Positions 2,719 to 59,152 of a stretch of DNA of 64,000 nt are shown piece after piece. The notes beneath the pieces were generated by a model, which ran no database searches, had not been told where the DNA came from, and worked only from the letters and a program-made list of their open reading frames with translations. Position numbers and translations under genes: made by a program. This DNA comes from Cellvibrionaceae bacterium (GTDB taxonomy: Bacteria > Pseudomonadota > Gammaproteobacteria > Pseudomonadales > Cellvibrionaceae): the NCBI GenBank assembly GCA_050300015.1, contig JBNKWZ010000008.1, forward strand, positions 125,393-189,392. Reading direction: 5' to 3'. Each line of letters starts with the position of its first letter. Position 1 is the first letter of the stretch.

Positions 2719-2945
2719 CACCTATCCTCAAAGCAGTCATTAAAACCTACCAGTACTTACTCAGTCCTTGGCTAGGCAACCACTGTCGTTTTACCCCCTC
2801 GTGCTCACATTACGCGCTAGAAGCGCTAGACCAACATGGCTCAGCTAAGGGTTCTTGGTTAACTGTGTGTCGACTGTGTAAATGCCACCCTTGGCACACT
2901 GGCGGTTATGACCCCGTACCCGACACAAAACACTGCAAACATTAA
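2715..2945 (+). CDS. yidD: Membrane protein insertion efficiency factor YidD
   Basis: 76 aa with cysteine-rich motifs TPSCSHYA and [13 protein letters not shown]. Canonical position between rnpA and yidC. Confidence 0.88.
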
Positions 2946-2964
2946 ATAATTGGTAACTCTATAA

Positions 2965-4650
2965 ATGAAGATGGATTGGCTACGAACTTCTTTGATAGCA
3001 GCAATTGCTTTAGTCTGCTTCCTATTAATGATCCGCTGGACAAACTTCCAAGAGCAGCGGGTAGAGCTGGTAAACAGTGGGCCGAAGGTTTCTGAAGGTT
3101 CAACGAGTACCCCTTCAAGCCCTTCGATGGCCGTTGAATCCGATAACCCAATGGATTCAACCGATTCAGATATACCGGTGGCAGAGGGTGGTGAAGCAAT
3201 GCCAACCCTCACCACCACAGGTAAAACCATCACAGTTAAAACCGATGTTTTGTCCACCGAAATCAACCTGGTTGGGGGAGACTTTCACTATGTAGGTTTA
3301 CCCACTTATTATGCGAAGTTGAATACGCCTGACACGCCTTTTGAATTGTTGGTGAATGACGCTAACAAAACCTACGCAGCTGAAAGTGGCCTCATCGGTA
3401 AAAACGGTACCGATGCACCAGGTAAACGTCCCCAATTCAAAGCCGAAAAAAATCACTATGAATTACAACCCGGCGAGGAAACCCTCACGGTGGACTTGTT
3501 TTACCAACAAACAGATGCCGTTCGGATTATTAAGCGTTTTAACTTTACCCGAGGTGACCATCTTGTTGATGTGTCTTACATTATCCACAATCAGAGTACT
3601 ACCCCTTGGGAAGGCCAATTATACGGACAAATCAAACGCAACGACTTTAACCCGGTTGCCTCGACTGGGGTAGGTATGAAACCCTTTTTGGGCGCCGCCA
3701 CCACTACAGACGAAGACAATTATAAAAAGTTTTCTTTCGATGACCTTGAAGATGAGAAGGTGAACTTTGAAAAGGCCGGCGGCTGGGTCGCCATGGTTCA
3801 GCATTATTTTATCAGCGCATGGATCCCTAACGCTGAAGACACGAACGAATTCGAATTGTTTCAATCCAAAAAATCAGGCTTGTTTTACTTACGTTTTTTT
3901 AGCCCAAAGTTTGAAGTCGCTGCCGGTAGTGTTGGCGAAAAGCACTTTAGTTTCTACGCAGGCCCCAAAGACATCAAAACACTTGAGACCGTGTCACCTT
4001 ATTTAGATCTTACCGTGGACTACGGCATACTATGGTGGATTGCTAAACCACTGTTTTACGCATTGGATTTAATTCATGGGATTGTGGGTAACTGGGGCAT
4101 TGCGATTATTTTGCTAACCGTCTGTATTAAGGTCTTATTCTTTTATCCATCTGCCGCAAGTTATCGCTCCATGGCCAAGATGCGTAAAGTGCAACCCAAA
4201 ATGGCTGAACTCAAAGAGCGCTGTGGTGACGACCGCCAAAAACTTTCGGCTGAGATGATGAAATTATACCGAACAGAAAAGGTCAACCCCTTAGGTGGTT
4301 GTTTACCGATATTGATACAAATGCCGGTATTTATTTCGCTTTATTGGGTGTTGGGTGAAAGTGTCGATCTTCGTCACGCACCTTTCTTTTTCTGGATTCA
4401 TGATCTGTCGGTGAAGGACCCTCATTTTGTATTACCTCTAATAATGGGCACCACCATGTGGATTCAACAAAAATTAAATCCCACGCCACCCGACCCGATG
4501 CAGGCAAAAGTCATGCAGATGATGCCTGTCTTTTTTACTTTCCTATTTTTAGTGTTTCCAGCAGGTTTGGTACTTTATTGGGTTGTTAATAATACCTTGT
4601 CAATCACCCAGCAATACATCATTACCAAGCAGATTGAAAAAAGCCAATAA
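2965..4650 (+). CDS. yidC: Membrane protein insertase YidC
   Basis: 561 aa with an N-terminal TM helix, a large periplasmic domain and a C-terminal multi-TM Oxa1 core ([20 protein letters not shown]...). Conserved synteny. Confidence 0.95.
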
Positions 4651-21668: not shown

Positions 21669-21763
21669 CTATTAACCCGGCAATTAAATACATCTCCTAT
21701 CTATTTAATTGCGGCATGTCCTTGTGCCGCATTAACCTGAGATAAAAGGTTGCCGAGTTAATG
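21669..21763 (+). mobile_element. MITE-like repeat copy A (95 bp) with terminal inverted repeats CTATTAACCC / GAGTTAATG and internal hairpin GCGGCATGTCCTTGTGCCGC
   Basis: Aligns end to end with the 87-bp copy at 27447-27533 (same TIRs, same core hairpin, same ATAAAAGG segment). Lies between the atpC stop and the atp terminator. Confidence 0.65.
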
Positions 21764-21783
21764 TTCGTGTTCGGGTAAATCAA

Positions 21784-21809
21784 AAGGTGGCTTAGGCCAC
21801 CTTTTTTGT
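21784..21809 (+). terminator. Rho-independent terminator of the atp operon
   Basis: Stem AAGGTGGC / GCCACCTT with loop TTAG, followed by TTTTTTG. Confidence 0.8.
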
Positions 21810-27446: not shown

Positions 27447-27533
27447 CTATTAACCCAGCATTGGATATTTCAGCCAATGGCGGCACGTCCTTGTACCGCA
27501 TTAACCCGACATAAAAGGCTGCCGGGTTAATAG
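27447..27533 (+). mobile_element. MITE-like repeat copy B (87 bp, archetype): TIRs CTATTAACCC / GGGTTAATAG, core GCGGCACGTCCTTGTACCGC
   Basis: Perfect 10-bp terminal inverted repeats. An internal 6-bp-stem hairpin and a second hairpin TTAACCCG...CGGGTTAA. The right TIR contributes the TAA stop of the minus-strand gene ending at 27527. Confidence 0.7.
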
Positions 27534-28816
27534 CGTCCTAATTTTAGGACTTTACCGTCGTCACTGTCGGTCAAAATCCACAGGGCGCCCTCTGGGCCCT
27601 CGGTTACATCTCTCACTCTGCCCACATCCGTGAGCAAACGCTCTTCACCAACAACGCGGTCGCCCTCCAGCATAAGGCGTACGAGGCCGCGGGCTCTTAA
27701 GGCTCCGATAAACAAGTTTCCTTTCCAGGCTTTAAACAAGGCTCCTGAATAAAAAGTCATGCCACCTGGAGCGATGACAGGGTCCCAGTAGTACACAGGC
27801 TGTTCCATGCCATGTTTCTGAGTAATACCTTTGCCGATAGAGTCACCTCCGTATTCTATGCCGTAAGTAATCACTGGCCAGCCATAGTTTTTGCCGGGTT
27901 GGGGCGTATTCAACTCATCGCCCCCACGCGGGCCGTGCTCAATGGTCCACAAAGCGCCGGTCTCAGGATGGATGGCAGCACCTTGTATGTTTCGATGGCC
28001 ATAAGACCAGATTTCGGGCAAGCCGTCACCGTCCGCATAGGGGTTAGATAAGGGGCTGCTACCATCGGCATGGATGCGTACCACCTTACCAAGATGGGTA
28101 TCGAGGTCTTGCGCCAGCACCCGTGCATCCACATTTGAGCGTTCGCCCAAGGTTACATACAAATGGCCCTCTGGGCTCCACACCAGTCGTGAGCCGTAAT
28201 GTAGGTTGGAGTTCCAGCCCGGCATCTGCCGGAAGATCACTTCCACCTGTTCCAGGGCCGTGTTGTTCTCATTCAGGCGTCCGCGCGCCACGGTTGTGCC
28301 ATTGGTGTTATCACCGCGGTCTTCCGCGTAGCTCAAAAACACCATGCGATCGGTTTTAAAGGTGGGCGAGATGTTCACATCCAGTAACCCCCCTTGTCCC
28401 CGAGCCCAAACCTTCGGCACGCCTGTAATGGGTGGTGAAACCTCGCCGTGCTGGGTAACGAGGCGAAGTTGACCGGACCGCTCTGTGACCAACATACGGC
28501 CATCGGGTAAAAATTGGATGCCCCAGGGGTGATTGAGGCCACTGGCAATGACGTTTTGAGTGAGGCTAATGTTAGAAAGCACTTCGGGCGCGCGCGTTTG
28601 CTCTGCAAAGTACGGACGTAAATTTTTGGCTTCCGCTGGGGCCGTTTGCACTGGATCTCCCGTGGGGAGCGCCACACCCGTTGTTTTCACTATCGTATTG
28701 TCGGCCGGTGGTATTGGGCTTTCGGTGCTCGCGCTTTTATGATTGCAGGCGGTGACTGCTACGAGTAAAAGGGTCGTAATAACGGTAGGCGTTTTTGAGG
28801 TCAGCATGGTGTGCAC
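27527..28816 (-). CDS. PQQ-dependent soluble sugar (glucose/sorbosone) dehydrogenase, lipoprotein
   Basis: 429 aa with lipobox LVAVTAC. SGDH-family motifs HPWGIQFLPDGRMLVTER and YGHRNIQG. Confidence 0.9.
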   Translation of the reverse strand: MHTMLTSKTPTVITTLLLVAVTACNHKSASTESPIPPADNTIVKTTGVALPTGDPVQTAPAEAKNLRPYFAEQTRAPEVLSNISLTQNVIASGLNHPWGIQFLPDGRMLVTERSGQLRLVTQHGEVSPPITGVPKVWARGQGGLLDVNISPTFKTDRMVFLSYAEDRGDNTNGTTVARGRLNENNTALEQVEVIFRQMPGWNSNLHYGSRLVWSPEGHLYVTLGERSNVDARVLAQDLDTHLGKVVRIHADGSSPLSNPYADGDGLPEIWSYGHRNIQGAAIHPETGALWTIEHGPRGGDELNTPQPGKNYGWPVITYGIEYGGDSIGKGITQKHGMEQPVYYWDPVIAPGGMTFYSGALFKAWKGNLFIGALRARGLVRLMLEGDRVVGEERLLTDVGRVRDVTEGPEGALWILTDSDDGKVLKLGRY

Positions 28817-35849: not shown

Positions 35850-35899
35850 ATGCGGCACAAGGACGTGCCGCCATTGGCCGGAATTTCCGGGCTAATAGT
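35850..35899 (-). repeat. MITE-like repeat copy C (partial, inverted): core GCGGCACAAGGACGTGCCGCC plus TIR-like GGGCTAATAG
   Basis: The reverse complement matches the left half of copy B (CTATTAgCCC...GCCAATGGCGGCACGTCCTTGTGCCGCA). It abuts or overlaps the stop codon of the RND permease gene. Confidence 0.6.
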
Positions 35900-38800
35900 G
35901 CGATTGCGCCGCAAACGGTTTTTCTCGTTGGTGAGACTTAAAAATTCGGCGGAGTAACTTACGCATCTGAATTTTAAGACGCGCGCCGCCATAGTAACAA
36001 CAAGGCACCAAAATTAACGTAACCAGTGAGCTGAACATAACCCCAAAGGCCAGTGACAAAACCATGGGTTTTAAAAACTGTGCCTGCAAACTACGTTCGA
36101 ACATAATTGGCAATAGCCCTACAAAGGTGGTAATGGACGTTAAAATAATGGGGCGAAAACGGTCTACGCCGGATTGCAGTACGGCGTCTAGGGTGGTGAC
36201 CCCACGTCGTTTTAATTCGTTGATGCGTTCCAGTAATACCAAGTTATCGTTGACCACTACGCCCGAGCACGCCAAAAAGCCAAATAGCGAAAACATACTC
36301 ATGCTGGTGCCAAATACAGAATGCCCAATTAAGGCGCCAACAAAACCAAAGGGCACCGCCAGCATGACCAATAAAGGTTGAAAAAATGATTTAAAGGCAA
36401 TGGCGAATATGGCTATTACCAGTACAAATACCTTGAAAAAATCCACCGCAAAATTGTCACCGAACTCAGCTTGAGTTTTTAAGCCCGCATCGGTGGATAA
36501 TTGAAACCCCGTGTGCTTGCGTTTCCATTCGGTTTCATAGGAGGCAAACATCTCATCCACAATGGCTTTTGCGTCGAAGTCGTCTTCCACTTCCGCGGTA
36601 ATGGTAATATTACGCTTTCTATCCACTCGACGAATCACTGCGGCACCCGGAACCAGTTCGAAATCTGCCACGGCACTTAAGGGTACTTCACGACCGTCTT
36701 GTGTACGAATACGAATGGTATCAAGCGTATCCAACGAGCCGCGTTCGGCGTCGTCGTATCGCACCATGACGCGCACATCTTCGCTGCCACGGGGTATACG
36801 TTGAACCTCTTCACCGTAAAAACCCTGCCGAATTTGGCGGGCCACTTCCCCGAGTGTAAGCCCTAGCGTTTGGCCATAAGGTTTGAGTTTTACCTCCACT
36901 TCCGTGCGTTCAGAATCCAGATTAGTCCGTACATTGGACACCCCTGGATAAGCGGCCAAGGTTTGCATGACGTCATCCATGGCCGCCTGTTGTGCGGCTC
37001 GGCGATTGTCCAAAATATTCAGGTTTAAGGTAATCTCGGGCCCGGGGTCACTCATTTGCGCGCTTAAGGAATAACTTTGAGCCTCTGGCAACGGGCCGAT
37101 CAAATCGCGCAACTTGTCACCCACTTCAGCGGCGCTAACATTGCGTTCCTCACTGGGAGTCAAGCCCACAAAAATAGTGGCATTTTGGCCGTTCAAATCG
37201 CTGTTGATTTCGCGAATAAAGGGTTGATTTTGATTTTTGGCTAATAGATCTGGATCTTTAGTAATAATGTCAATTTTTTCAAGCACGTGGTCCGAAATTT
37301 TTTGAACCTGGTTATACGCGGTGCCTTCGGAAAACCCTAGCCGGATCATAATTTGCTCTTGTGGCACATTGGGGAAAAATGACATGGCGATCCATCCGTT
37401 TTTCACATAGACCACAGCAATCAAAAACACAAAGGCAAAACCGATTAAAGTACTACCTTTGCGCTTCAAACACTTATCTAAAAACGGCTGATAGCGATAT
37501 TTGGCAAAATGCACCATATGACCAGAGAACCAGTTGCGGGTGCGCTCCAGTGCACGCGACAAGGGGTTTTGGGCTTTTTTTTCTGGTTTTAGATGTGACA
37601 AATGAGATGGCAGTATGAGTATGGATTCCACTAGAGAGAAGCACAGGCACAACATCACCACATAAAAAATCGACAAGGTATATACCCGCATCTCTGCGGG
37701 GACATCGATCATGGGTAAAAAGAAAATAATGGTACTAATGACAGCCAAAAACACAGGCTTGAGTACCGATTGAGTGCCGTTGATGGCGGCAAGCCTACCG
37801 GTTTCACCGCGTTGCTGATGCCGATAAATGCTTTCACCCACAATAATCGCATCATCTACTACAATGCCGAGTACCATTAAAAATGCAAACATCGACAACA
37901 TATTGATGGACACATTCAAAAACGGCAACAACCATAAGGCGCCGGCAAAAGCAGTGGCAATGCCAGCCACTACCCAAAATGCCAGTAGGGGCCTTAAAAA
38001 TAGCATTAAAATAATAAAGACCAGTACCAGGCCACTCAGGGCGTTGTCTTTTAATAAATTAAAACGGCTGTCAAAAATACTTTTGGCTTCAAAATTAATT
38101 TTGAAGGTCATGCCTTCGGGCAAAAGTTTTTGAAACTCCTCCACATACTGTCGCGCTGCGGCAGTGCCTTCAAACAATTGTGGGTCATCGCTCATTTTCA
38201 CTTCGATGTTGACGCCGGGTTTTCCGTTCATAGTAAAGTCAATGTATTGCTCGGCAAAACCATCGTGAATGCTGGCGATATCCCCCAAGGTCAATTGGCT
38301 GCCATCGGGATTGCTACGCACCACGATGTTGGCAAAATCGTCTTCCGTAAAGGCTTGCTCCCGGGTCTGAATTTGGATGTCACCGTCTTTAGATTTTATC
38401 GCACCGGCGGGTACATTCACGGAGGATTGTGCGATGGCGTTCGCCACCTCTTGAAAACTCAAATGGTAACGTTGCAAATCCATCTCTGAGACTTCAATAC
38501 TCATCTCGTCATTTTTAATACCCGTTAAGCGCACGGTGGAAACGCCTTCGAGCAAAGACATTTCATCCCGTATTTGGTAGGCCCAGGCTTTAATTTGTTT
38601 GGGGTCGGCATCTCCATACAGCGCCATCCAAAGTAAAAAGCGCCTAATAATTTGTTGGCGAATAATGGGGCGCTCGGCGGAAGTGGGGAAAGTGATAATG
38701 GCGTCCACCCGGGTTTTCACATCGCTAATTAGCTTATTGACGTCGTAGCCTTCAACCACTTGTAGGTTGACGGTACCGAAGCCCTGGCGAGACTCGGAAG

Positions 38801-39044
38801 TGATTTGAAAAATACCGGGCAAATCGGCAATGGTTTCTTCAATGCGCACCACAATTTGCTGCTCCACCTCCGTGGATGCGGCACCTGGGTACGCCATGGA
38901 AATGGTTACAACATTGTTAATATGGGTAGGGAAGGCTTCCTTTTTAACATTTTGGGCTCCCATGATGCCGAATGCCAACATGGCAATCATTAACAAATTG
39001 GCAGCGATGGGGTTGTCGACAAACCACTCAACAATACGCTTCAT
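35892..39044 (-). CDS. RND efflux transporter permease (AcrB/AcrD/HAE1 family)
   Basis: 1050 aa with 12 TM helices and two large periplasmic loops. N-terminal MKRIVEWFVDNPIAANLLMIAMLAFG. Confidence 0.95.
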   Translation of the reverse strand: MKRIVEWFVDNPIAANLLMIAMLAFGIMGAQNVKKEAFPTHINNVVTISMAYPGAASTEVEQQIVVRIEETIADLPGIFQITSESRQGFGTVNLQVVEGYDVNKLISDVKTRVDAIITFPTSAERPIIRQQIIRRFLLWMALYGDADPKQIKAWAYQIRDEMSLLEGVSTVRLTGIKNDEMSIEVSEMDLQRYHLSFQEVANAIAQSSVNVPAGAIKSKDGDIQIQTREQAFTEDDFANIVVRSNPDGSQLTLGDIASIHDGFAEQYIDFTMNGKPGVNIEVKMSDDPQLFEGTAAARQYVEEFQKLLPEGMTFKINFEAKSIFDSRFNLLKDNALSGLVLVFIILMLFLRPLLAFWVVAGIATAFAGALWLLPFLNVSINMLSMFAFLMVLGIVVDDAIIVGESIYRHQQRGETGRLAAINGTQSVLKPVFLAVISTIIFFLPMIDVPAEMRVYTLSIFYVVMLCLCFSLVESILILPSHLSHLKPEKKAQNPLSRALERTRNWFSGHMVHFAKYRYQPFLDKCLKRKGSTLIGFAFVFLIAVVYVKNGWIAMSFFPNVPQEQIMIRLGFSEGTAYNQVQKISDHVLEKIDIITKDPDLLAKNQNQPFIREINSDLNGQNATIFVGLTPSEERNVSAAEVGDKLRDLIGPLPEAQSYSLSAQMSDPGPEITLNLNILDNRRAAQQAAMDDVMQTLAAYPGVSNVRTNLDSERTEVEVKLKPYGQTLGLTLGEVARQIRQGFYGEEVQRIPRGSEDVRVMVRYDDAERGSLDTLDTIRIRTQDGREVPLSAVADFELVPGAAVIRRVDRKRNITITAEVEDDFDAKAIVDEMFASYETEWKRKHTGFQLSTDAGLKTQAEFGDNFAVDFFKVFVLVIAIFAIAFKSFFQPLLVMLAVPFGFVGALIGHSVFGTSMSMFSLFGFLACSGVVVNDNLVLLERINELKRRGVTTLDAVLQSGVDRFRPIILTSITTFVGLLPIMFERSLQAQFLKPMVLSLAFGVMFSSLVTLILVPCCYYGGARLKIQMRKLLRRIFKSHQREKPFAAQSHY

Positions 39045-43747: not shown

Positions 43748-44734
43748 ATGTCCAAAAAAACCACGATTCGGATCCAGCTGCAACCTAAAGCTCATAGTTC
43801 GCCAGCGCCACAGGCTTCTGCTCAGGAGTGGGAAATTTTGTGGGGTCGAATTTTTGGAGCGGGCGCCCTATTGGTGGGTTTAGTGGTTGCGGTCGCTTGG
43901 GGCATGCATCGGTTTGGCGCGGAGCCTGTTCCTCAAGGTGCTGAGGCTCTGCATACCGTAACACCCGTGGAGATCGCTGTCCCGTTAGACAACCGTGTGG
44001 CAGAAACCGGCATGAACCCTATTCAGGCGACTGACGAGCAAGTATCTGGCGCCTTTGCAACTGTAGAGGCTGAGGTAAAAGCGCAAATCCAGGCGTCGCA
44101 AGTAGATCAGCCGTTGGCCCAGGTGCAAAAGGCGCAACCGATAAAGAACGCTGCGTTGATTGATGGCACACCGTCAACGGCAGTGGCATCAACACCCACC
44201 GGTGAAAGCAATGGGCCAAAGTCACCAAAGGTTGCAACCGAAGCAGCTGCAGTCAGTTCTCAGCCCGAAGAGCCCAACAAAAACCTCAACCGCGCTGCAC
44301 AACTGGCACCAACCCTGGCGCAAGTGAGTGAGTTGCCTCAAGCGGTAAAAAGCGTTCGCGTGATGCAAGCTTCCAATGGTGTTGCCGAAGTGGCCATCTT
44401 GTCGCCCAAAATTAATTCTGCAGTCGTGAGTGATGAACGTGTTCAGCGTGAGCCCGGTAGGGCGTTGCCAAAAACGTTACGCATGGGCGCGTCTGATTTA
44501 TTAACGGTCTATTTCTTTACCGACTATCGCAATTTACAGGGCCAATGGGTATACCACGATTGGTATCTGAACGGGAAGAGAATGGCACGGGTAAAATCAC
44601 GCCCTCACAAGCAAAACTTCAGCGCCTATTCCAGCAAATACATTGACCGCCATATGACCGGTGACTGGCAGGTGAAGGTGGTGGATGAAAATAACCAGTT
44701 GTTGGCGCGAACAGGGTTTGAAGTGCTTCCCTAA
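43748..44734 (+). CDS. DUF2914-domain membrane protein
   Basis: Single TM helix (ALLVGLVVAVAWG) followed by a P/A/Q-rich linker. C-terminal TVYFFTDYRNLQGQWVYHDWYLNGKRM...GDWQVKVVDENNQLLARTGFEV is typical of DUF2914. Confidence 0.65.
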   Translation: MSKKTTIRIQLQPKAHSSPAPQASAQEWEILWGRIFGAGALLVGLVVAVAWGMHRFGAEPVPQGAEALHTVTPVEIAVPLDNRVAETGMNPIQATDEQVSGAFATVEAEVKAQIQASQVDQPLAQVQKAQPIKNAALIDGTPSTAVASTPTGESNGPKSPKVATEAAAVSSQPEEPNKNLNRAAQLAPTLAQVSELPQAVKSVRVMQASNGVAEVAILSPKINSAVVSDERVQREPGRALPKTLRMGASDLLTVYFFTDYRNLQGQWVYHDWYLNGKRMARVKSRPHKQNFSAYSSKYIDRHMTGDWQVKVVDENNQLLARTGFEVLP

Positions 44735-44735
44735 T

Positions 44736-44782
44736 CTATTAACCCGGCAATCTTTTAGGTTGGATTAATACGGGGTTAATAG
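44736..44782 (+). mobile_element. MITE-like repeat copy F (minimal 47-bp form: TIR CTATTAACCC, 27-bp core, TIR GGGTTAATAG)
   Basis: Perfect 10-bp TIRs. Wedged exactly between the stop codons of two convergent genes (TAA at 44732-44734, minus-strand TAG at 44785-44787). Confidence 0.65.
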
Positions 44783-44784
44783 CT

Positions 44785-46101
44785 CTAGTGTTTTAGAAAT
44801 TTAGACAAAAAGCCGCGCTTGGGCTCGAACAAAAATCGATGCGCATCCTGCACCAAGGTTTGGGGTACAGCCTGCACCGGCAAGCCGCGTTTAATCATCA
44901 GTTTAGAGGAGGATTCATCGCCTCGACGGGCCAAGTCTAAGTCTACAATTCTGAATTCGGTATAGGGCTTCCCTGAGCGTCTAATCAGTGGAATTACTGA
45001 GGCTTGAATCCGCTTTTCATAGCTGTTTTCCACCACCATGGCCACGGTGCCATTGCTAATTTGTACCACACTGCCTGTGGGATAAATGCCAATGGCTTGC
45101 ACAAAAGCTTCCACCAGAGGCGCATCAAACAATTGGCCCTTCAGTTTGTTGAGGCGAGATATCGCTTGCGCCGGGGATAGGGCGTGCTGGTTAAAAGGGT
45201 GCACCAGGTATTCAAAGGTATCTACCAGCCCCACGATGCGCGCGTGAAATGGAATGTTATTGCTTGCCAAGCGATTGGGGTAACCGCTGCCGTCGTGTCG
45301 TTCACAGTAATGCTTTAGGGTGTTGATGACATCCTTACAGGAAAAATGCTCCTGCTCCAGTTGGTACGTGATTTCACTTAGGTGCTCACGATAGGCTTCA
45401 GAATGCTGCAATACGTTGTGCGATTTGAGCGTCTTGTCGCTCAAGGTGCTTTTGCCAATGCCAGTGAGCATTTGTGCCAAGCTCACATGCAACAGAGAAA
45501 ACCGGTTTAAGCCCAACTGCCTGCCCACTATCCCCGCCCACACCGCAGAGCGCACCATATGCAAGAGTACGGGCTTGCGGGTTTGCATGATTTGACACAC
45601 CCAAGCCAGGGCGTCGGGGTTACGAATGATGCTTTCCATCAGATCTGAAGTGCACTCCACCAATGGCTCAAGGTGCAGGGATTGGTGTCCAGCAACACGT
45701 TGATGCAACAAGGTGACCTGGTGCTCAACTAGGGCGATCAACGGGGTAACCTGTTTGAGTTCGTCGGTCATCTTTGAGCTGACCGAGTAGTGCTCAACGC
45801 AGTGACGTCGTTTCCATTTAGAGGGTTCGATAAACAGTGGCGATGTCTTGGGGCTGACAATACGGGCTACAGGTGGCTTATGTCGTTTGGCTGTGGACAG
45901 GGGGGCTCTGCGTGAACGACGCTGATCCACATACACGGTCTGGCAAAATCGTGTGAGGGTATCGATATCCTTTTGGCTTTCGATGGCAAGCCCTTGCAGG
46001 GGAAATGGGGTGTCCGACCAGGGGCGATCCAAGCGCGAGATGTACATACCCACTTCCAGGGCGCTCACTGAGACCGCCTTTTCTACCAGTTCCATGCTCA
46101 T
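44785..46101 (-). CDS. HD-GYP domain protein with degenerate HD dyad (TG instead of HD), N-terminal DUF3391-like
   Basis: GYP motif HYCERHDGSGYPNRL is present. The upstream metal-binding position reads AQMLTGIGK where HD-GYP phosphodiesterases have LLHDIGK. Confidence 0.8.
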   Translation of the reverse strand: MSMELVEKAVSVSALEVGMYISRLDRPWSDTPFPLQGLAIESQKDIDTLTRFCQTVYVDQRRSRRAPLSTAKRHKPPVARIVSPKTSPLFIEPSKWKRRHCVEHYSVSSKMTDELKQVTPLIALVEHQVTLLHQRVAGHQSLHLEPLVECTSDLMESIIRNPDALAWVCQIMQTRKPVLLHMVRSAVWAGIVGRQLGLNRFSLLHVSLAQMLTGIGKSTLSDKTLKSHNVLQHSEAYREHLSEITYQLEQEHFSCKDVINTLKHYCERHDGSGYPNRLASNNIPFHARIVGLVDTFEYLVHPFNQHALSPAQAISRLNKLKGQLFDAPLVEAFVQAIGIYPTGSVVQISNGTVAMVVENSYEKRIQASVIPLIRRSGKPYTEFRIVDLDLARRGDESSSKLMIKRGLPVQAVPQTLVQDAHRFLFEPKRGFLSKFLKH

Positions 46102-48647: not shown

Positions 48648-48773
48648 AAAGCGCTTGTTCTTGCCCTAAAGATAATTAAAAAGTTTTGAACCATTGAAAC
48701 ACTAGCCAATTCGCACAGTGGCGCCAGTGTTTTAAGGGCGGTGATCAAAAAGGTAAGGAGGAGCTATTTGATC

Positions 48774-48811
48774 ACCGGGTTAATATCCCCCTGAGTTACC
48801 TAAACCCGGTG
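48774..48811. repeat. Degenerate mini-copy of the MITE-like repeat (hairpin CACCGGGTT...AACCCGGTG containing GGGTTAATA / TAAACCC)
   Basis: Shares the GGGTTAAT TIR core. Overlaps the stop codon of the minus-strand gene ending at 48796. Confidence 0.4.
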
Positions 48812-49962
48812 AGGTCGGAACCAAGCACGGCTTCTTGGTCCACAAAAATGCCGCTTTGCCGAAGGGTTGGCAGTATAACTTCATCGGTATAGACACAACC
48901 GGTGGTCTCGGGGTCCACTTGGAATTCCTTCCCGCAGGTTGTGTGACCATGACCTTCGCCGCGCTCTACCATGGTAAGTAATGGACGATAGCCTGCCTGC
49001 CAAGCCACTAAGGCTGTAAAACTTTGGCGCAGATTTTTTAAAATGGCACATCCGGCAAAATCCAAATCTCCCCAAAAATGGGTGGGCCAATCTTCGTGAC
49101 TGCGTTCAAACCACCAGTTTTGAAATTGTTTCACCGACGCCAGATGCTGGCCGCCACTTAAAATCGCAAACGCTGCATTGCCCTGATCGCGCACGCGTGG
49201 CGCGCTACCAGAAAAACCTGCGCTGTATACCAGTGCAGTATGAGAGGGGTTCAAATTGTTGAGTAGGTGAAAAGTGTCTTGATTTTCCACAAATAGGACG
49301 CTTTCAATGTGCTCGGGCAATGTTATATTCAGAAGGATTGGACGTGGGGTGACCAGGTGACTAATGCTGGGATAGAGGGTCTGAATCAAACCTTCACGAC
49401 GATCTAAAAATTTCGAATCCCCCCAAAAGCATCGAGCAGACAAGGCGCGTAAACTCATGGGTTTGCGTAGTTCGCTGCCAATTTTTGCAAAGCCTTTCAA
49501 AATATGTTCTGGGGATTTATGTGAAACACGAATAGTCTCTGCCAAAGCCTCACCAAAATCTTCAAACTGGTGCGACATCTTTTGTAAGGACTTTTCCCAT
49601 AATAAAGCATAGGGATCGAGGCGAGGGCGGTTTAACCACTCGCGAACCAAGGCTTCTTTTTCTGGAACAAAATTAACGTGCGCGCCTTCATACGGTGGTT
49701 GGTAGGGCTTGGTGGGCACGAGCTTAATTGAAAGAATATGATATTCCTTGTCTAGCGCTTTGATTAAGGCCCAGAGGTATGCGGGGTCGTAGTCGAGGGT
49801 GTTGTAAAGCTCCGGTAAGTTTTTGCTGGAGATTCGTATACTTAAGCGCTCGATTTGTTCGACCTTATCTAAAAATCGTGAGAGTAAATTTTGCAGGATG
49901 GGTTCTTCATCGAGCCAGTGAGGGCGGCGGGGAAACACATCGGGTTTGGGTTCTGCCATCAT
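48796..49962 (-). CDS. Orphan Toprim-like protein resembling Wadjet JetD / DUF3322-DUF2220
   Basis: C-terminal half has a Toprim-like acidic pattern VLFVENQDTF ... FWGDLDFAGCAIL (E ... DxD). 388 aa with no TM. No jetABC/SMC genes nearby. Confidence 0.5.
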   Translation of the reverse strand: MMAEPKPDVFPRRPHWLDEEPILQNLLSRFLDKVEQIERLSIRISSKNLPELYNTLDYDPAYLWALIKALDKEYHILSIKLVPTKPYQPPYEGAHVNFVPEKEALVREWLNRPRLDPYALLWEKSLQKMSHQFEDFGEALAETIRVSHKSPEHILKGFAKIGSELRKPMSLRALSARCFWGDSKFLDRREGLIQTLYPSISHLVTPRPILLNITLPEHIESVLFVENQDTFHLLNNLNPSHTALVYSAGFSGSAPRVRDQGNAAFAILSGGQHLASVKQFQNWWFERSHEDWPTHFWGDLDFAGCAILKNLRQSFTALVAWQAGYRPLLTMVERGEGHGHTTCGKEFQVDPETTGCVYTDEVILPTLRQSGIFVDQEAVLGSDLTGFR

Positions 49963-52502: not shown

Positions 52503-52699
52503 AAGGTTTCCGAAATCAAAAATCGAGTGGGGCTGTTGTGGCGCTCCTGATAAATCAGCGCCAGTATTTTTAGGGCGTGTAATAAAACCAATAGGAAATC
52601 TATTTTATTGCTAGAAAACCTCAGATTAATAAGTTACTAATTTAAGCGTCTTCAAATTAAGTGCCTTCAAAAATTTAAAGAGGCGATCCGGTGTTTAAC

Positions 52700-58897: not shown

Positions 58898-59070
58898 CTA
58901 TTAACCCCGCCATCTTTTATGTCGGGTTATGCGGTACAAGGACGTGCCGCCATTGGCCGAAATGGCCAATGCAAGCCCTTACAATACAAGGAAATTTACA
59001 TATTTTTGCCAGTATTTTATGGGCGCGCAATTCAATAGATAGGAGATCTATCGAATTGCGGGGTTAATAG
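58898..59070 (-). mobile_element. MITE-like repeat copy D (long 173-bp variant, inverted orientation)
   Basis: 58898-58972 is the reverse complement of copy B (CTATTAACCCcGCcaTCTTTTATGTCGGGTTA-TGCGGTACAAGGACGTGCCGCCATTGGC...). An 86-bp extra segment follows, then GCGGGGTTAATAG at 59058-59070. Confidence 0.6.
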
Positions 59071-59074
59071 GAAG

Positions 59075-59121
59075 CCTTCGATTAAGTCCTTGCGCAAAGG
59101 TCACAAGGACTTAATCGAAGG
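59075..59121. repeat. Perfect 18-bp-stem hairpin CCTTCGATTAAGTCCTTG / CAAGGACTTAATCGAAGG with 11-nt loop, abutting MITE copy D
   Basis: The stem interior GTCCTTG...CAAGGAC echoes the MITE core GTCCTTGT. Confidence 0.55.
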
Positions 59122-59152
59122 TTCCCTGTTAAAATGCACAGCAATTTTGGGG

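What the first reader, a model, noticed from the sequence alone, without database searches (positions are those of the whole stretch)
27447..27533. Recurring MITE-like intergenic element family (TIR CTATTAACCC/GGGTTAATAG, core hairpin GCGGCAyGTCCTTGTrCCGC)
The same element occurs in at least seven places in this 64-kb window in full, long, minimal and partial forms. Coordinates are 21669-21763, 27447-27533, 35850-35899 (inverted, half), 44736-44782 (47-bp minimal), 58898-59070 (173-bp long, inverted), 48774-48811 (degenerate) and a related hairpin at 59075-59121. The copies share 10-bp terminal inverted repeats, a conserved 6-bp-stem hairpin with loop GTCCTTG, a second hairpin TTAACCCG...CGGGTTAA and an ATAAAAGG segment. 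They always lie at gene ends, often overlapping stop codons. This is not the 35-bp Pseudomonas-type REP, and I do not recognise it as a described family. Its density suggests hundreds of copies genome-wide.
Basis: seen in the sequence. Interest (0 to 1): 0.72.

Follow-up and report, generated by a model that had tools for sequence, protein, structure and literature searches.

The report
Hairpin-rich miniature transposon (MITE) family
Short, non-coding, hairpin-forming mobile DNA elements (MITEs) sit at gene ends in this uncultured gammaproteobacterium; the kind is ordinary, but they carry a 20-base hairpin that recurs base for base in differently-ended mini-transposons of distant bacteria and resembles a binding site for the RNA regulator CsrA.

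Summary
The window holds five clear copies of one repeat family: 21669-21763, 27447-27533, 35850-35898, 44736-44782 and 58898-59070. The hairpin at 59070-59126 is a different element.

The 173-nt copy is the full form: 13-bp terminal inverted repeats (CTATTAACCCSGC) around five hairpins. The shorter copies are internal-deletion derivatives. No transposase lies in the window and no Rfam family matches. The ends are C-TA-TTAACC...GGTTAA-TA-G. Two flanking genes end ...TAT-TAA/TAG inside the repeat, which fits insertion into a CTAG/TAG stop codon with TA duplication. I read it as a Correia/RUP-like MITE, undescribed in the literature I could search.

The core hairpin GCGGCACGTCCTTGTRCCGC is also the centre of 148-154-nt, five-hairpin MITEs in other Gammaproteobacteria, Deltaproteobacteria and a Nitrospirae MAG. 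Those have IS5-like ends and 4-bp target duplications. Its reverse complement, ACAAGGACGU in a hexaloop hairpin, fits the CsrA-binding consensus. Strand asymmetry and orientation hint at an RNA role, which is untested.

Genome-wide copy number and the mobilising transposase remain unknown.

The parts
58898..59070 (-). Full-length 173-nt copy. On the - strand (archetype orientation) it reads: left terminal repeat 59058-59070; hairpin H1 59029-59057; H2 module 58972-59028; H3 58951-58971; core hairpin 58931-58950; H5 plus right terminal repeat 58898-58930.
   Evidence: (I1, I2, I5). Folds into five hairpins with z = -6.3 (archetype strand) and -7.2 (opposite strand). Same length and module order as L111.
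27447..27533 (+). Left terminal repeat 27447-27459; H3 27458-27479; core 27480-27499; H5 plus right terminal repeat 27500-27533. H1 and H2 are missing.
   Evidence: The deletion junction lies at a GCA(A)TT microhomology, seen by comparing with the long copy.
21669..21763 (+). 95-nt copy between atpC and glmU. Left terminal repeat 21669-21681; H1 21682-21710; core 21711-21730; H5 21731-21763 with a degenerate right end (GAGTTAATG). H2 and H3 are missing.
   Evidence: (D2). A compensatory C-G to T-A change keeps H5 paired (CCTG/CGAG here against CCCG/CGGG in copy A). The deletion junction lies at AAT(T/G)GCG.
35850..35898 (-). Truncated 49-nt copy: left terminal repeat (CTATTAGCCCGG, 35887-35898), a short hairpin, and core 35852-35871. 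H5 and the right end are missing.
   Evidence: D13, I3; E 1.4e-13.
44736..44782 (.). Minimal 47-nt form: both terminal repeats plus the H5 spacer, without the core. It fills almost the whole gap between convergent genes 43748..44734(+) and 44785..46101(-).
   Evidence: D17, I4; E 1.4e-8.
52560..52633 (-). Decayed left-half fragment: degenerate left end TTATTAATCTGA, H1, and the start of the H2 module.
   Evidence: D5, 75% identity to 59008-59059; E 0.02; this sequence was in the training set.
48758..48786 (-). Doubtful remnant of a left end (ATATTAACCCGG plus an H1-like stretch).
   Evidence: E 0.29 only.
27527..27529 (-). TAA stop codon of the glucose/sorbosone dehydrogenase gene (27527..28816), inside the right terminal repeat. 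The protein ends ...GRY*.
   Evidence: None of 120 homologues ends in Y and 34 end in R.
35892..35894 (-). TAG stop codon of the AcrB-family gene (35892..39044), inside the left terminal repeat and in the same frame (C|TAT|TAG). The protein ends ...SHY*.
59070..59126 (.). Neighbouring 57-nt perfect-stem palindrome, not a family member. It is two inverted copies of an IS5-like end, GGAAGCCTTCGATTAAGTCCTTG. It abuts the long copy and shares the G of its terminal TAG.
   Evidence: I7; unique in the window; z = -9.2. Compare the class-2 end GGAAGGTCTGATTAAG and the IS5 end GGAAGGTGCGAATAAG.

Best explanation
This is a family of non-autonomous DNA transposons (a bacterial MITE). The full element is 173 nt: 13-bp terminal inverted repeats (CTATTAACCCSGC) around five hairpins (H1, H2, H3, the 20-nt core, H5).

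Shown:
- The 95-, 87-, 49- and 47-nt copies are the same element with internal deletions whose junctions lie at 3-6-nt microhomologies.
- No copy codes for a protein, and no transposase lies in the window.
- Every complete copy has TA at both tips.

Inferred:
- A DDE transposase encoded elsewhere binds the ends and inserts the element at a TA, which is duplicated. In this genome the TA usually lies within CTAG. The transposase type would be IS630/Tc1-mariner-like, or a 2-3-bp-duplicating IS5-family subgroup.
- CTAG often contains a TAG stop codon, and the end sequence TA|TTAA rebuilds a stop one codon later (TAT-TAA). Insertions exactly at gene ends are therefore tolerated and accumulate there.
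- The element is then transcribed as part of the neighbouring 3' region.

The H3-core module is shared with a widespread group of 148-154-nt MITEs that have IS5-like ends and 4-bp duplications. So the hairpin body is an old, conserved cargo that travels with more than one kind of transposon end.
For: Repeat family above chance.

Modular alignment and deletion forms: with the sequences.

Strong folding on both strands: z from -3.2 to -9.4.

Non-autonomous: Pfam annotation of the window genes shows no transposase.

TA at both tips in all 4 complete copies, including L111 from another organism, where the outer bases are T/T rather than C/G. The outermost C...G is therefore flank, not element.

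Two genes end ...C|TAT|TAR in the same frame inside the repeat. The GSDH tail without the final Y ends in R, the commonest terminal residue among homologues (34/120), whereas none ends in Y.

Mobility:
- L111 lies in a different gene context.
- Contigs of three short-read assemblies break inside copies.

Relatives that share the core:
- 19 of 26 have identical 4-bp direct flanks, 9 of them non-palindromic (TTAG, CCAA, ATAG, ATAA, CTGG).
- The control (next 4 bp outward) gave 0 of the 19 copies it was run on.
- Their ends match the IS5 end at 13 of 16 positions.

TA termini, sizes under 200 bp, long/short forms differing by an internal segment, and IS630-type mobilisation are the described properties of Correia and RUP elements (PMC2229807).
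Against: - No empty site was found, so the TA duplication cannot be told apart from a TA that belongs to the inverted repeat.
- No transposase with matching ends was found.
- Copies differ by about 10-12% and several are truncated, so the family may no longer be active.
- Only 84 kb of the genome could be examined.
- CTAG is merely under-represented in the window (66 against 114 expected), not rare enough to explain the location by itself.
- The window family's ends are unrelated in sequence to the IS5-like ends of the relatives. Common descent of the whole element, as opposed to the H3-core module, is not shown.
Confidence: 0.72

Rival explanations
1. The conserved body is a functional RNA module and the MITE is only its vehicle. 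Transcribed from the strand opposite the archetype, the element shows two hairpins with GGA in the loop: core' GC-ACAAGGACGU-GC, and H1' such as CCAGGAUGG. These would bind CsrA/RsmA. They would either tie the upstream mRNA's 3' end to the Csr system or, across many copies, titrate CsrA. This adds to the MITE reading and does not exclude it.
For: - Core' matches the CsrA SELEX consensus RUACARGGAUGU at 10 of 12 positions, including the invariant ACA and GGA, with GGA in a hexaloop (consensus from PMC4347634).
- The reverse strand has exactly two GGA loops in 15 of 18 class-2 relatives and in the window's long copy. The archetype strand has none in those 18, nor in the three window copies folded; L111 has one on each strand.
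- The same apical hairpins (ccaGGAugg, cgcAGGACgcg, ucAAGGAug) occur in E. coli CsrB.
- The two loop variants found (ATCCCT, GTCCCT) keep GGA.
- Reverse-strand RNA is the more stable in 24 of 28 elements and in all 10 lineages, although the core alone favours the other strand.
- The recurrent core variant GTACCGC is a C.A mismatch on one strand and a U.G wobble on the reverse strand.
- Genes abut the core/H5 end on the reverse strand in 12 cases, against 3 at the other end.
- H3 covaries.
Against: - The motif match was noticed after the fact.
- There are only two GGA sites per element, against about 22 in CsrB.
- No Csr/Rsm family of Rfam matches, even at E up to 10.
- In the window the orientation is mixed: copy B is sense to atpC on the non-GGA strand.
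- In L111, H1 carries its GGA on the other strand.
- The full invariance of the stem is more than CsrA needs.
- The gene calls behind the orientation count are crude.
- Transcription-linked mutation bias could produce the wobble asymmetry.
- The core's 'invariance' is partly ascertainment, because hits were collected with the exact 20-mer.
Confidence: 0.22
2. This is a REP/BIME-like system. The 20-nt palindrome is a REP recognised and spread by a RAYT (Y1/HUH) transposase, or the elements are IS200/IS605-type ends.
For: The core is a 20-nt GC-rich imperfect palindrome in extragenic positions, present in several copies. REPs are likewise structured and intergenic.
Against: - The copies have 13-bp terminal inverted repeats and TA tips.
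- Relatives with the same core have clear 4-bp target duplications and IS5-like ends. HUH elements make no such duplications.
- There is no GTAG/GGAG-type REP head, no alternating BIME arrangement, and no Y1 transposase among the window's genes.
Confidence: 0.05
3. This is purely selfish DNA with no RNA role. The hairpins exist because each is a pair of transposase-binding end copies or a subterminal site needed for transposition. They stay palindromic through DNA-level template-switch correction. The core is conserved because the parent insertion sequences need it.
For: - H1 and H5 of the relatives, and H5 of the window family, are literally an end sequence plus its inverted copy.
- The H3 stems of the relatives resemble the GTTGAAAA-type ends.
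- Quasi-palindrome correction is an established mutational mechanism (general knowledge).
Against: - The core is identical in elements with three unrelated end types. A site bound by a transposase should co-vary with that transposase.
- There are strand asymmetries, which DNA-level symmetry does not predict.
Confidence: 0.35
4. The element acts like a generic REP or Correia element. The stable hairpins in 3' untranslated regions protect upstream mRNA from 3'-5' exonucleases. When they lie within a few nucleotides of the stop codon they may also impede terminating ribosomes. No specific protein partner is involved.
For: - Copies lie 0-46 nt after stop codons.
- Predicted folding is very stable.
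- Copy B lies between the atpC stop and the hairpin AAAAGGTGGCTTAGGCCACCTTTT (21782-21805), so it should be part of the atp transcript.
- Such roles are described for MITE and REP transcripts (PMC2229807; REP effects on translation from my own knowledge of Liang, Rudd and Deutscher 2015).
Against: A generic stabiliser would not need a sequence-invariant loop and stem across phyla. No expression data are available. The terminator scan did not list the 21782-21805 hairpin.
Confidence: 0.3

Closest known systems
Correia / NEMIS elements of Neisseria
   Same: Under 200 bp, non-coding and multi-copy. Terminal inverted repeats with 5'-TA-3' at the tips and TA target duplication. Long and short forms differ by an internal segment of about 50 bp. 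Co-transcribed with neighbours and fold into long stem-loops (PMC2229807).
   Different: No sequence similarity. The terminal repeat here is 13 bp rather than about 24-26 bp. The body here is five separate hairpins with a hyper-conserved 20-nt core shared with other MITE types. No IHF site or outward promoter was found.
RUP of Streptococcus pneumoniae (mobilised by IS630-Spn1)
   Same: A small MITE inserting at TA, with ends resembling an IS630-family element. This is the mechanism I infer here.
   Different: No IS630-family partner with matching ends was found for the window family. The link rests on the TA tips and the C-TA-G context only.
IS5-group insertion sequences and their MITEs (the 'class-2' relatives found here in Halothiobacillus, Pseudomonadales, Thiotrichales, Deltaproteobacteria and Nitrospirae MAGs)
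   Same: They share the junction ..ATGGCGGCACGTCCTTGTRCCGC, with H3 abutting the core. They share the five-hairpin order, an end-plus-inverted-end hairpin at the right tip, and placement at stop codons.
   Different: The relatives are 148-154 nt, with IS5-like ends (13/16 to GGAAGGTGCGAATAAG) or CAGYCYGTTGAAAA ends, and 4-bp duplications. The window family is 173 nt, has unrelated ends (CTATTAACCCSGC) and no 4-bp duplication, and its H1 and H2 sequences are unrelated.
REP/BIME elements with RAYT transposases
   Same: Extragenic GC-rich palindromes of about 20-35 nt, in many copies, transcribed into 3' regions.
   Different: REPs have no terminal inverted repeats or target duplications, have a conserved tetranucleotide head, and flank a Y1 transposase gene. 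None of these was seen here.
CsrB / RsmX-Y-Z sRNAs (CsrA/RsmA sponges)
   Same: Hairpins that present GGA in the loop. The apical hairpins ccaGGAugg and AGGAC are identical to ones in E. coli CsrB.
   Different: There are only two such loops per element. No own promoter or terminator was found. No Rfam Csr/Rsm model matches. The elements are dispersed and mobile rather than a single gene. Binding is untested.

Membership tests
Bacterial MITE (non-autonomous DDE transposon) | Small (under about 300 bp) with no coding capacity | tested here: met
   Copies are 47-173 nt. No ORF lies inside them, and they sit between annotated genes.
Bacterial MITE (non-autonomous DDE transposon) | Terminal inverted repeats | tested here: met
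   13-bp CTATTAACCCSGC / GSSGGGTTAATAG in copies A, minimal, long and L111.
Bacterial MITE (non-autonomous DDE transposon) | Several dispersed copies in unrelated contexts | tested here: met
   Five copies plus 1-2 fragments in 64 kb. L111 lies in another organism and context. Assembly contigs break inside copies. The genome-wide count was not obtainable.
Bacterial MITE (non-autonomous DDE transposon) | Target-site duplication | tested here: inconclusive
   TA flanks TTAACC...GGTTAA in 4/4 complete copies, and the stop-codon frames fit a C-TAG target. TA could equally be part of the inverted repeat. No empty site was found.
Bacterial MITE (non-autonomous DDE transposon) | A cognate autonomous element with the same ends | not testable with these tools
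   None in the window or in the fetched loci.
IS5-group-derived MITE | Ends similar to IS5-group inverted repeats | tested here: not met
   The window family's CTATTAACCCSGC has no similarity to GGAAGGTGCGAATAAG. The feature is met only by the class-2 relatives (13/16) and by the separate palindrome at 59070-59126.
IS5-group-derived MITE | 4-bp (YTAR-type) target duplication | tested here: not met
   The 4-bp flanks of the window copies are inverted, not direct (NCTA...TAGN), and nothing further out matches. The feature is met in 19/26 class-2 relatives.
REP / RAYT system | Palindromes without terminal repeats or duplications, with a conserved tetranucleotide head and an associated Y1 transposase | tested here: not met
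   Terminal repeats are present. Relatives have 4-bp duplications. There is no Y1 transposase in the window.
Any curated RNA family (Rfam 15) | Covariance-model match | tested here: not met
   No hit at gathering thresholds in the window. In 12 related loci the only hits were tRNAs and an SRP RNA elsewhere in the loci. At E up to 10 the long copy gave only microRNA noise.
CsrA/RsmA-binding RNA | GGA in hairpin loops within an ACA..GGA context | tested here: met
   Core' GCACAAGGACGU matches RUACARGGAUGU at 10/12 positions. There are two GGA loops on the reverse strand in 15/18 relatives and in the long copy. This shows a motif match only.
CsrA/RsmA-binding RNA | Physical binding of CsrA and a regulatory effect | not testable with these tools
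   This needs gel shift, CLIP or genetics.

The most novel reading that the evidence does not exclude
The 20-nt core, together with the GGA-loop H1, is a portable CsrA/RsmA-binding RNA module. It has been carried for a long time by miniature transposons with at least three unrelated kinds of ends, in Gamma- and Deltaproteobacteria and Nitrospirae. By landing in stop codons in a preferred orientation, the elements would place CsrA sites in the 3' ends of many mRNAs. Transposition would then rewire the Csr regulon, or the copies would together act as a distributed sponge.
Probability: 0.2. Interest if true: 0.8.

Novelty: new variant of a known kind. Interest (0 to 1): 0.5.

Why it matters
On its own, a new MITE family in an uncultured gammaproteobacterium is routine. 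Its practical uses are annotation (two genes borrow their last codon and stop from it), explaining assembly breaks, and strain typing.

The unusual part is the cargo. A 20-nt hairpin is kept identical while the transposon ends, the other hairpin sequences and the host phylum all change. The strand asymmetries point to RNA.

If the hairpin is a CsrA-type site, or any other host-factor site, it would show how mobile elements spread post-transcriptional control sites through genomes. It would also give a directly testable ligand.

Tried and rejected
- Rfam: gathering thresholds on the window and on 12 related loci, and E up to 10 on the long copy. Nothing relevant.
- BLAST of the long copy against 72,556 plasmids: only chance 25-30-nt hits.
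- Core 20-mer in viral contigs: 4 hits, all inside high-GC coding sequence.
- Literature: the core sequence string, MITE/CTAG/IS630 (the Thiomargarita MITEs are unrelated), CsrA with MITE, CsrA with REP. No prior description found.
- Search for a parent insertion sequence among 106 fetched loci, by end sequences. Only more MITE copies and solo ends turned up. The ORF dump was uninformative.
- Empty sites: other assemblies of the same organism all carry the copies. The closest GSDH homologue's locus is not syntenic and carries no element.
- An automated choice of element boundaries by best inverted repeat failed, because palindromic duplications extend the repeat. It was replaced by fixed-register rules.
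- A TTAA 4-bp duplication model for the window family was rejected, because it would need a 10-bp palindromic target at every site.
- A sigma-54 promoter reading of GGCAC-N-TTGT was rejected, because the -12 GC is absent.
- The same 20-mer lies upstream of traG in Tn4371-like conjugative elements. I treated this as a separate, possibly coincidental, occurrence amplified by the spread of those elements.
Full report
**1. Observation**

The core GCGGCAYGTCCTTGTRCCGC occurs four times exactly in the window (21711+, 27480+, 35852-, 58931-), against 0.02 expected. CTATTAACCC occurs seven times exactly, and 11 times with at most one mismatch, against 3.4 expected. Repeat finding links the sites pairwise at 83-90% identity over 33-56 nt (D2, D13, D17, I1-I6).

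A profile built from the aligned copies finds five solid matches, a fragment at about 52584-52636 and a weak match at about 48739-48785. The strong matches are the training sequences, so searches are the independent evidence. No further copy lies in the 10 kb on either side of the window.

Two listed sites need correction. 48774-48811 is at best a decayed left end. 59075-59121 is a different element (see section 8).

**2. Anatomy**

The 173-nt copy at 58898-59070 (- strand) is then the full form:

- left terminal repeat CTATTAACCCCGC;
- H1 (AATTCGATAGAT-CTCC-TATCTATTGAATT);
- a 57-nt H2 module;
- H3 (CATTGGCC-atttc-GGCCAATG), directly abutting the core;
- the core (GCGGCAC-GTCCTT-GTACCGC);
- H5, which is an inner copy of the end sequence paired with the right terminal repeat GCGGGGTTAATAG.

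The other copies are this element with internal deletions:

| Copy | Missing parts |
|---|---|
| B (21669-21763) | H2 and H3 |
| A (27447-27533) | H1 and H2 |
| 35850-35898 | everything right of the core |
| 44736-44782 | everything except the ends and the H5 spacer |

The A and B junctions lie at short direct repeats (GCA(A)TT and AAT(T/G)GCG), read. This is the usual signature of slippage deletion.

All forms fold far better than shuffled sequence, with z from -3.2 to -9.4 on either strand. Between A and B, a C-G to T-A double change keeps H5 paired.

**3. Context**

The window covers the origin-proximal region of a gammaproteobacterial chromosome. The genes run dnaA...rnpA-yidC-mnmE-mnmG-rsmG-parAB-atpIBEFHAGDC-glmU-glmS and onward.

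The organism is an unnamed MAG. Its AtpD and MnmG have no relative at 90% identity or above among about 15 billion proteins. The best named matches of its GSDH, at about 60-64%, are Gynuella, Marinagarivorans and Kushneria.

Pfam annotation of the genes shows no transposase of any kind in the window. The elements are therefore non-autonomous. All copies are intergenic and lie 0-46 nt from a stop codon.

**4. Ends and target**

Every complete copy reads N-TA-TTAACC...GGTTAA-TA-N. The outer bases are C...G in the three complete window copies. They are T...T in the relative L111. So the outermost base is flank rather than element, and TA is the only candidate duplication. No 4-bp direct repeat exists at any register.

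The genes at 27527..28816 (glucose/sorbosone dehydrogenase, full-length Pfam match) and 35892..39044 (AcrB family) both run into the repeat in the same frame. They end ...C|TAT|TAA and ...C|TAT|TAG, giving proteins ending ...GRY* and ...SHY*. None of 120 GSDH homologues ends in Y, and 34 end in R.

The simplest reading is insertion into the TA of a C-TAG stop codon. The element's own TA|TTAA then restores a stop one codon later. This is inference, because I found no empty site: all assemblies of this organism carry the copies.

TA tips, TA duplication, size and long/short forms are the textbook properties of Correia and RUP elements. RUP is attributed to an IS630-family transposase (PMC2229807).

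**5. Evidence for multiple copies and mobility**

One metagenome contig (L111, Ga0172382) holds a 173-nt relative with the same module order, upstream of a universal-stress-protein gene. That is a different context. Its H1 stem is entirely different in sequence but still 13-15 bp long, and its H2 has compensatory changes.

Short-read contigs of the window organism end inside copy A (window 27498) and inside the long copy (59022). This is expected if 31-mers of the element recur elsewhere in the genome.

The density of 6-7 copies in 84 kb would extrapolate to a few hundred per genome. That extrapolation is not a measurement.

**6. A wider family**

About four are expected by chance from size alone. 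The hits fall into three groups.

(a) Scattered single hits in high-GC coding sequence. These look like chance.

(b) One conserved site just upstream of the traG/VirD4-type coupling-protein gene of Tn4371-like conjugative elements, in about 50 genomes. This may be one coincidence amplified by the spread of those elements, and I leave it open.

(c) Multi-copy intergenic elements, which I call 'class 2'. They occur in Halothiobacillus (three genomes), two Pseudomonadales MAGs, Thiotrichales, Wenzhouxiangellaceae, Acidiferrobacterales and other gammaproteobacterial MAGs, two deltaproteobacterial MAGs and a Nitrospirae MAG.

Class-2 elements have these properties:

- They are 148-154 nt long, apart from one copy of 163 nt and one of 118 nt.
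- 19 of 26 have identical 4-bp direct flanks. Nine are non-palindromic (TTAG, CCAA, ATAG, ATAA, CTGG), so they are duplications and not repeat extensions.
- The control (the next 4 bp outward) gave 0 of the 19 copies it was run on.
- Their ends, for example GGAAGGTCTGATTAAG, match the IS5 end GGAAGGTGCGAATAAG at 13 of 16 positions. I read the IS5 end from E. coli IS5A.
- Other lineages have CAGYCYGTTGAAAA ends instead.

Class-2 elements have the same plan as the window family: five hairpins, H3 abutting the core through ..(A/T)TGGCGGCAC, and a right tip made of an inverted end copy plus the end. The sequences of H1-H3 and H5 differ between lineages while pairing is kept. In H3, 8 of 9 predicted pairs show double changes.

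The window family thus shares the H3-core module and the architecture with IS5-type MITEs. It has unrelated ends and a different duplication.

One caveat applies. The relatives were collected with the exact 20-mer, so the core's 'invariance' is partly ascertainment. Copies found by other means show loop variants ATCCCT and GTCCCT with the stem unchanged.

**7. What the conserved hairpin might do**

On the strand opposite the archetype, the core reads GCGGC-ACAAGGACGU-GCCGC, a 7-bp stem with hexaloop AAGGAC. The CsrA SELEX consensus is RUACARGGAUGU, with ACA and GGA invariant and GGA in a hairpin loop (PMC4347634). The core matches 10 of 12 positions, including both invariant triplets.

On the same strand the apex of H1 reads CCAGGAUGG, CAUGGACG, CAGGGAAG, CAGGACG or UGGAU in the relatives. 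In the window copies it reads UAGGAGAU. Folding gives exactly two GGA loops on this strand in 15 of 18 relatives and in the long copy. The archetype strand has none in those 18 relatives, nor in the three window copies folded; L111 has one on each strand. The same small hairpins (ccaGGAugg, cgcAGGACgcg, ucAAGGAug) are present in E. coli CsrB. Both loop variants keep GGA.

Three asymmetries point to the same strand as RNA:

- Reverse-strand RNA is the more stable in 24 of 28 elements and in all 10 lineages, although the core alone favours the other strand.
- The recurrent core variant GTACCGC (window A and long copy, L048, L067, L069, L076) is a C.A mismatch on one strand and a U.G wobble on the reverse strand.
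- With crude gene calls, a gene ends at the core/H5 tip on the reverse strand in 12 relatives, against 3 at the other tip. In the window the counts are 2 for, 1 against and 1 ambiguous.

These hints are suggestive and not decisive. The motif was recognised after the fact. Two sites per element is few. No Csr/Rsm model of Rfam matches. L111's H1 carries its GGA on the other strand. Mutation bias could mimic the wobble asymmetry. I found no paper linking CsrA to MITEs or REPs.

The alternatives are a generic 3'-end stabiliser, a site needed by the parent insertion sequences, or palindromes kept by DNA-level correction. They are listed as rivals.

**8. The neighbour at 59070-59126**

This 57-nt palindrome (z = -9.2; unique in the window) is two inverted copies of GGAAGCCTTCGATTAAGTCCTTG. 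That is an IS5-like end of the class-2 type followed by the GTCCTTG of the core loop. It abuts the long copy. It suggests that an IS5-type element related to class 2 also lives in this genome. It is not a member of the window family.

**9. Verdict**

It is a new family of a known kind: a TA-tipped bacterial MITE, closest in behaviour to Correia and RUP elements. Its unusual feature is a hairpin module shared base for base with IS5-type MITEs of distant phyla.

Membership in the REP/RAYT, IS5-MITE or any Rfam family fails on tested features. The mobilising transposase, the exact duplication and the genome-wide copy number remain unknown. The CsrA-site reading is the most novel one the evidence allows, at about 20%.

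Noticed in passing
L002-L105 (about 50 loci, e.g. L010 7054-7073-, L003 4472-4491+): The identical 20-mer GCGGCACGTCCTTGTGCCGC lies 42-44 nt upstream of the start of a traG/VirD4-type coupling-protein gene. That gene is followed by a CopG-like gene and a trbB-like gene, in Tn4371-like conjugative elements of Comamonas, Xanthomonas, Stenotrophomonas, Dechloromonas, Cupriavidus, Bordetella and others. Here the sense strand carries the UCC loop, not the GGA loop. I could not tell whether this is coincidence or shared function.
   Followed up: partly
window 59070-59126: A 57-nt near-perfect palindrome made of two IS5-like ends (GGAAGCCTTCGATTAAG) plus GTCCTTG. It abuts the long copy. The terminator scan flags it on the - strand.
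   Followed up: partly
window 48796-49962 (-): This ORF matches the Wadjet JetD C-terminal domain (PF09983, E 7e-11), so an anti-plasmid defence gene may lie next to the doubtful remnant copy. The neighbouring genes were not examined for JetABC.
   Followed up: no
L079 about 2876-3042; L005 6503-6768: Two oddities in class-2 relatives. In L079 two elements lie back to back and share one CTAG. In L005 one copy carries an insertion of about 110 nt inside the H3 region.
   Followed up: no
L082 and L086 (Saccharibacteria and Paceibacteria MAGs); L021 and L070: The same 20-mer occurs inside longer hairpins followed by T-runs (GAGAAAGGCGGCAC...GTGCCGCCTTTTCT), which look like ordinary terminators. 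L021 and L070 share further flanking sequence with each other.
   Followed up: no
window 21782-21805: The hairpin AAAAGGTGGC-TTAG-GCCACCTTTT lies just after copy B and before glmU. It looks like the atp operon terminator, so copy B lies inside the transcript. The tool's terminator scan did not list it.
   Followed up: partly
whole window: AtpD and MnmG of this organism have no relative at 90% identity or above in a collection of 15 billion proteins. The best GSDH homologues are only about 60-66% identical. The host is a poorly sampled gammaproteobacterial lineage.
   Followed up: partly
class-2 loci: Class-2 elements are strikingly uniform in length (148-154 nt) across phyla. On the reverse strand they often carry GNRA-type tetraloops (GCAA in H3', GAAA in H5') and an A4-5/U4-5 stem in H2' with a YCRCRY loop.
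   Followed up: no
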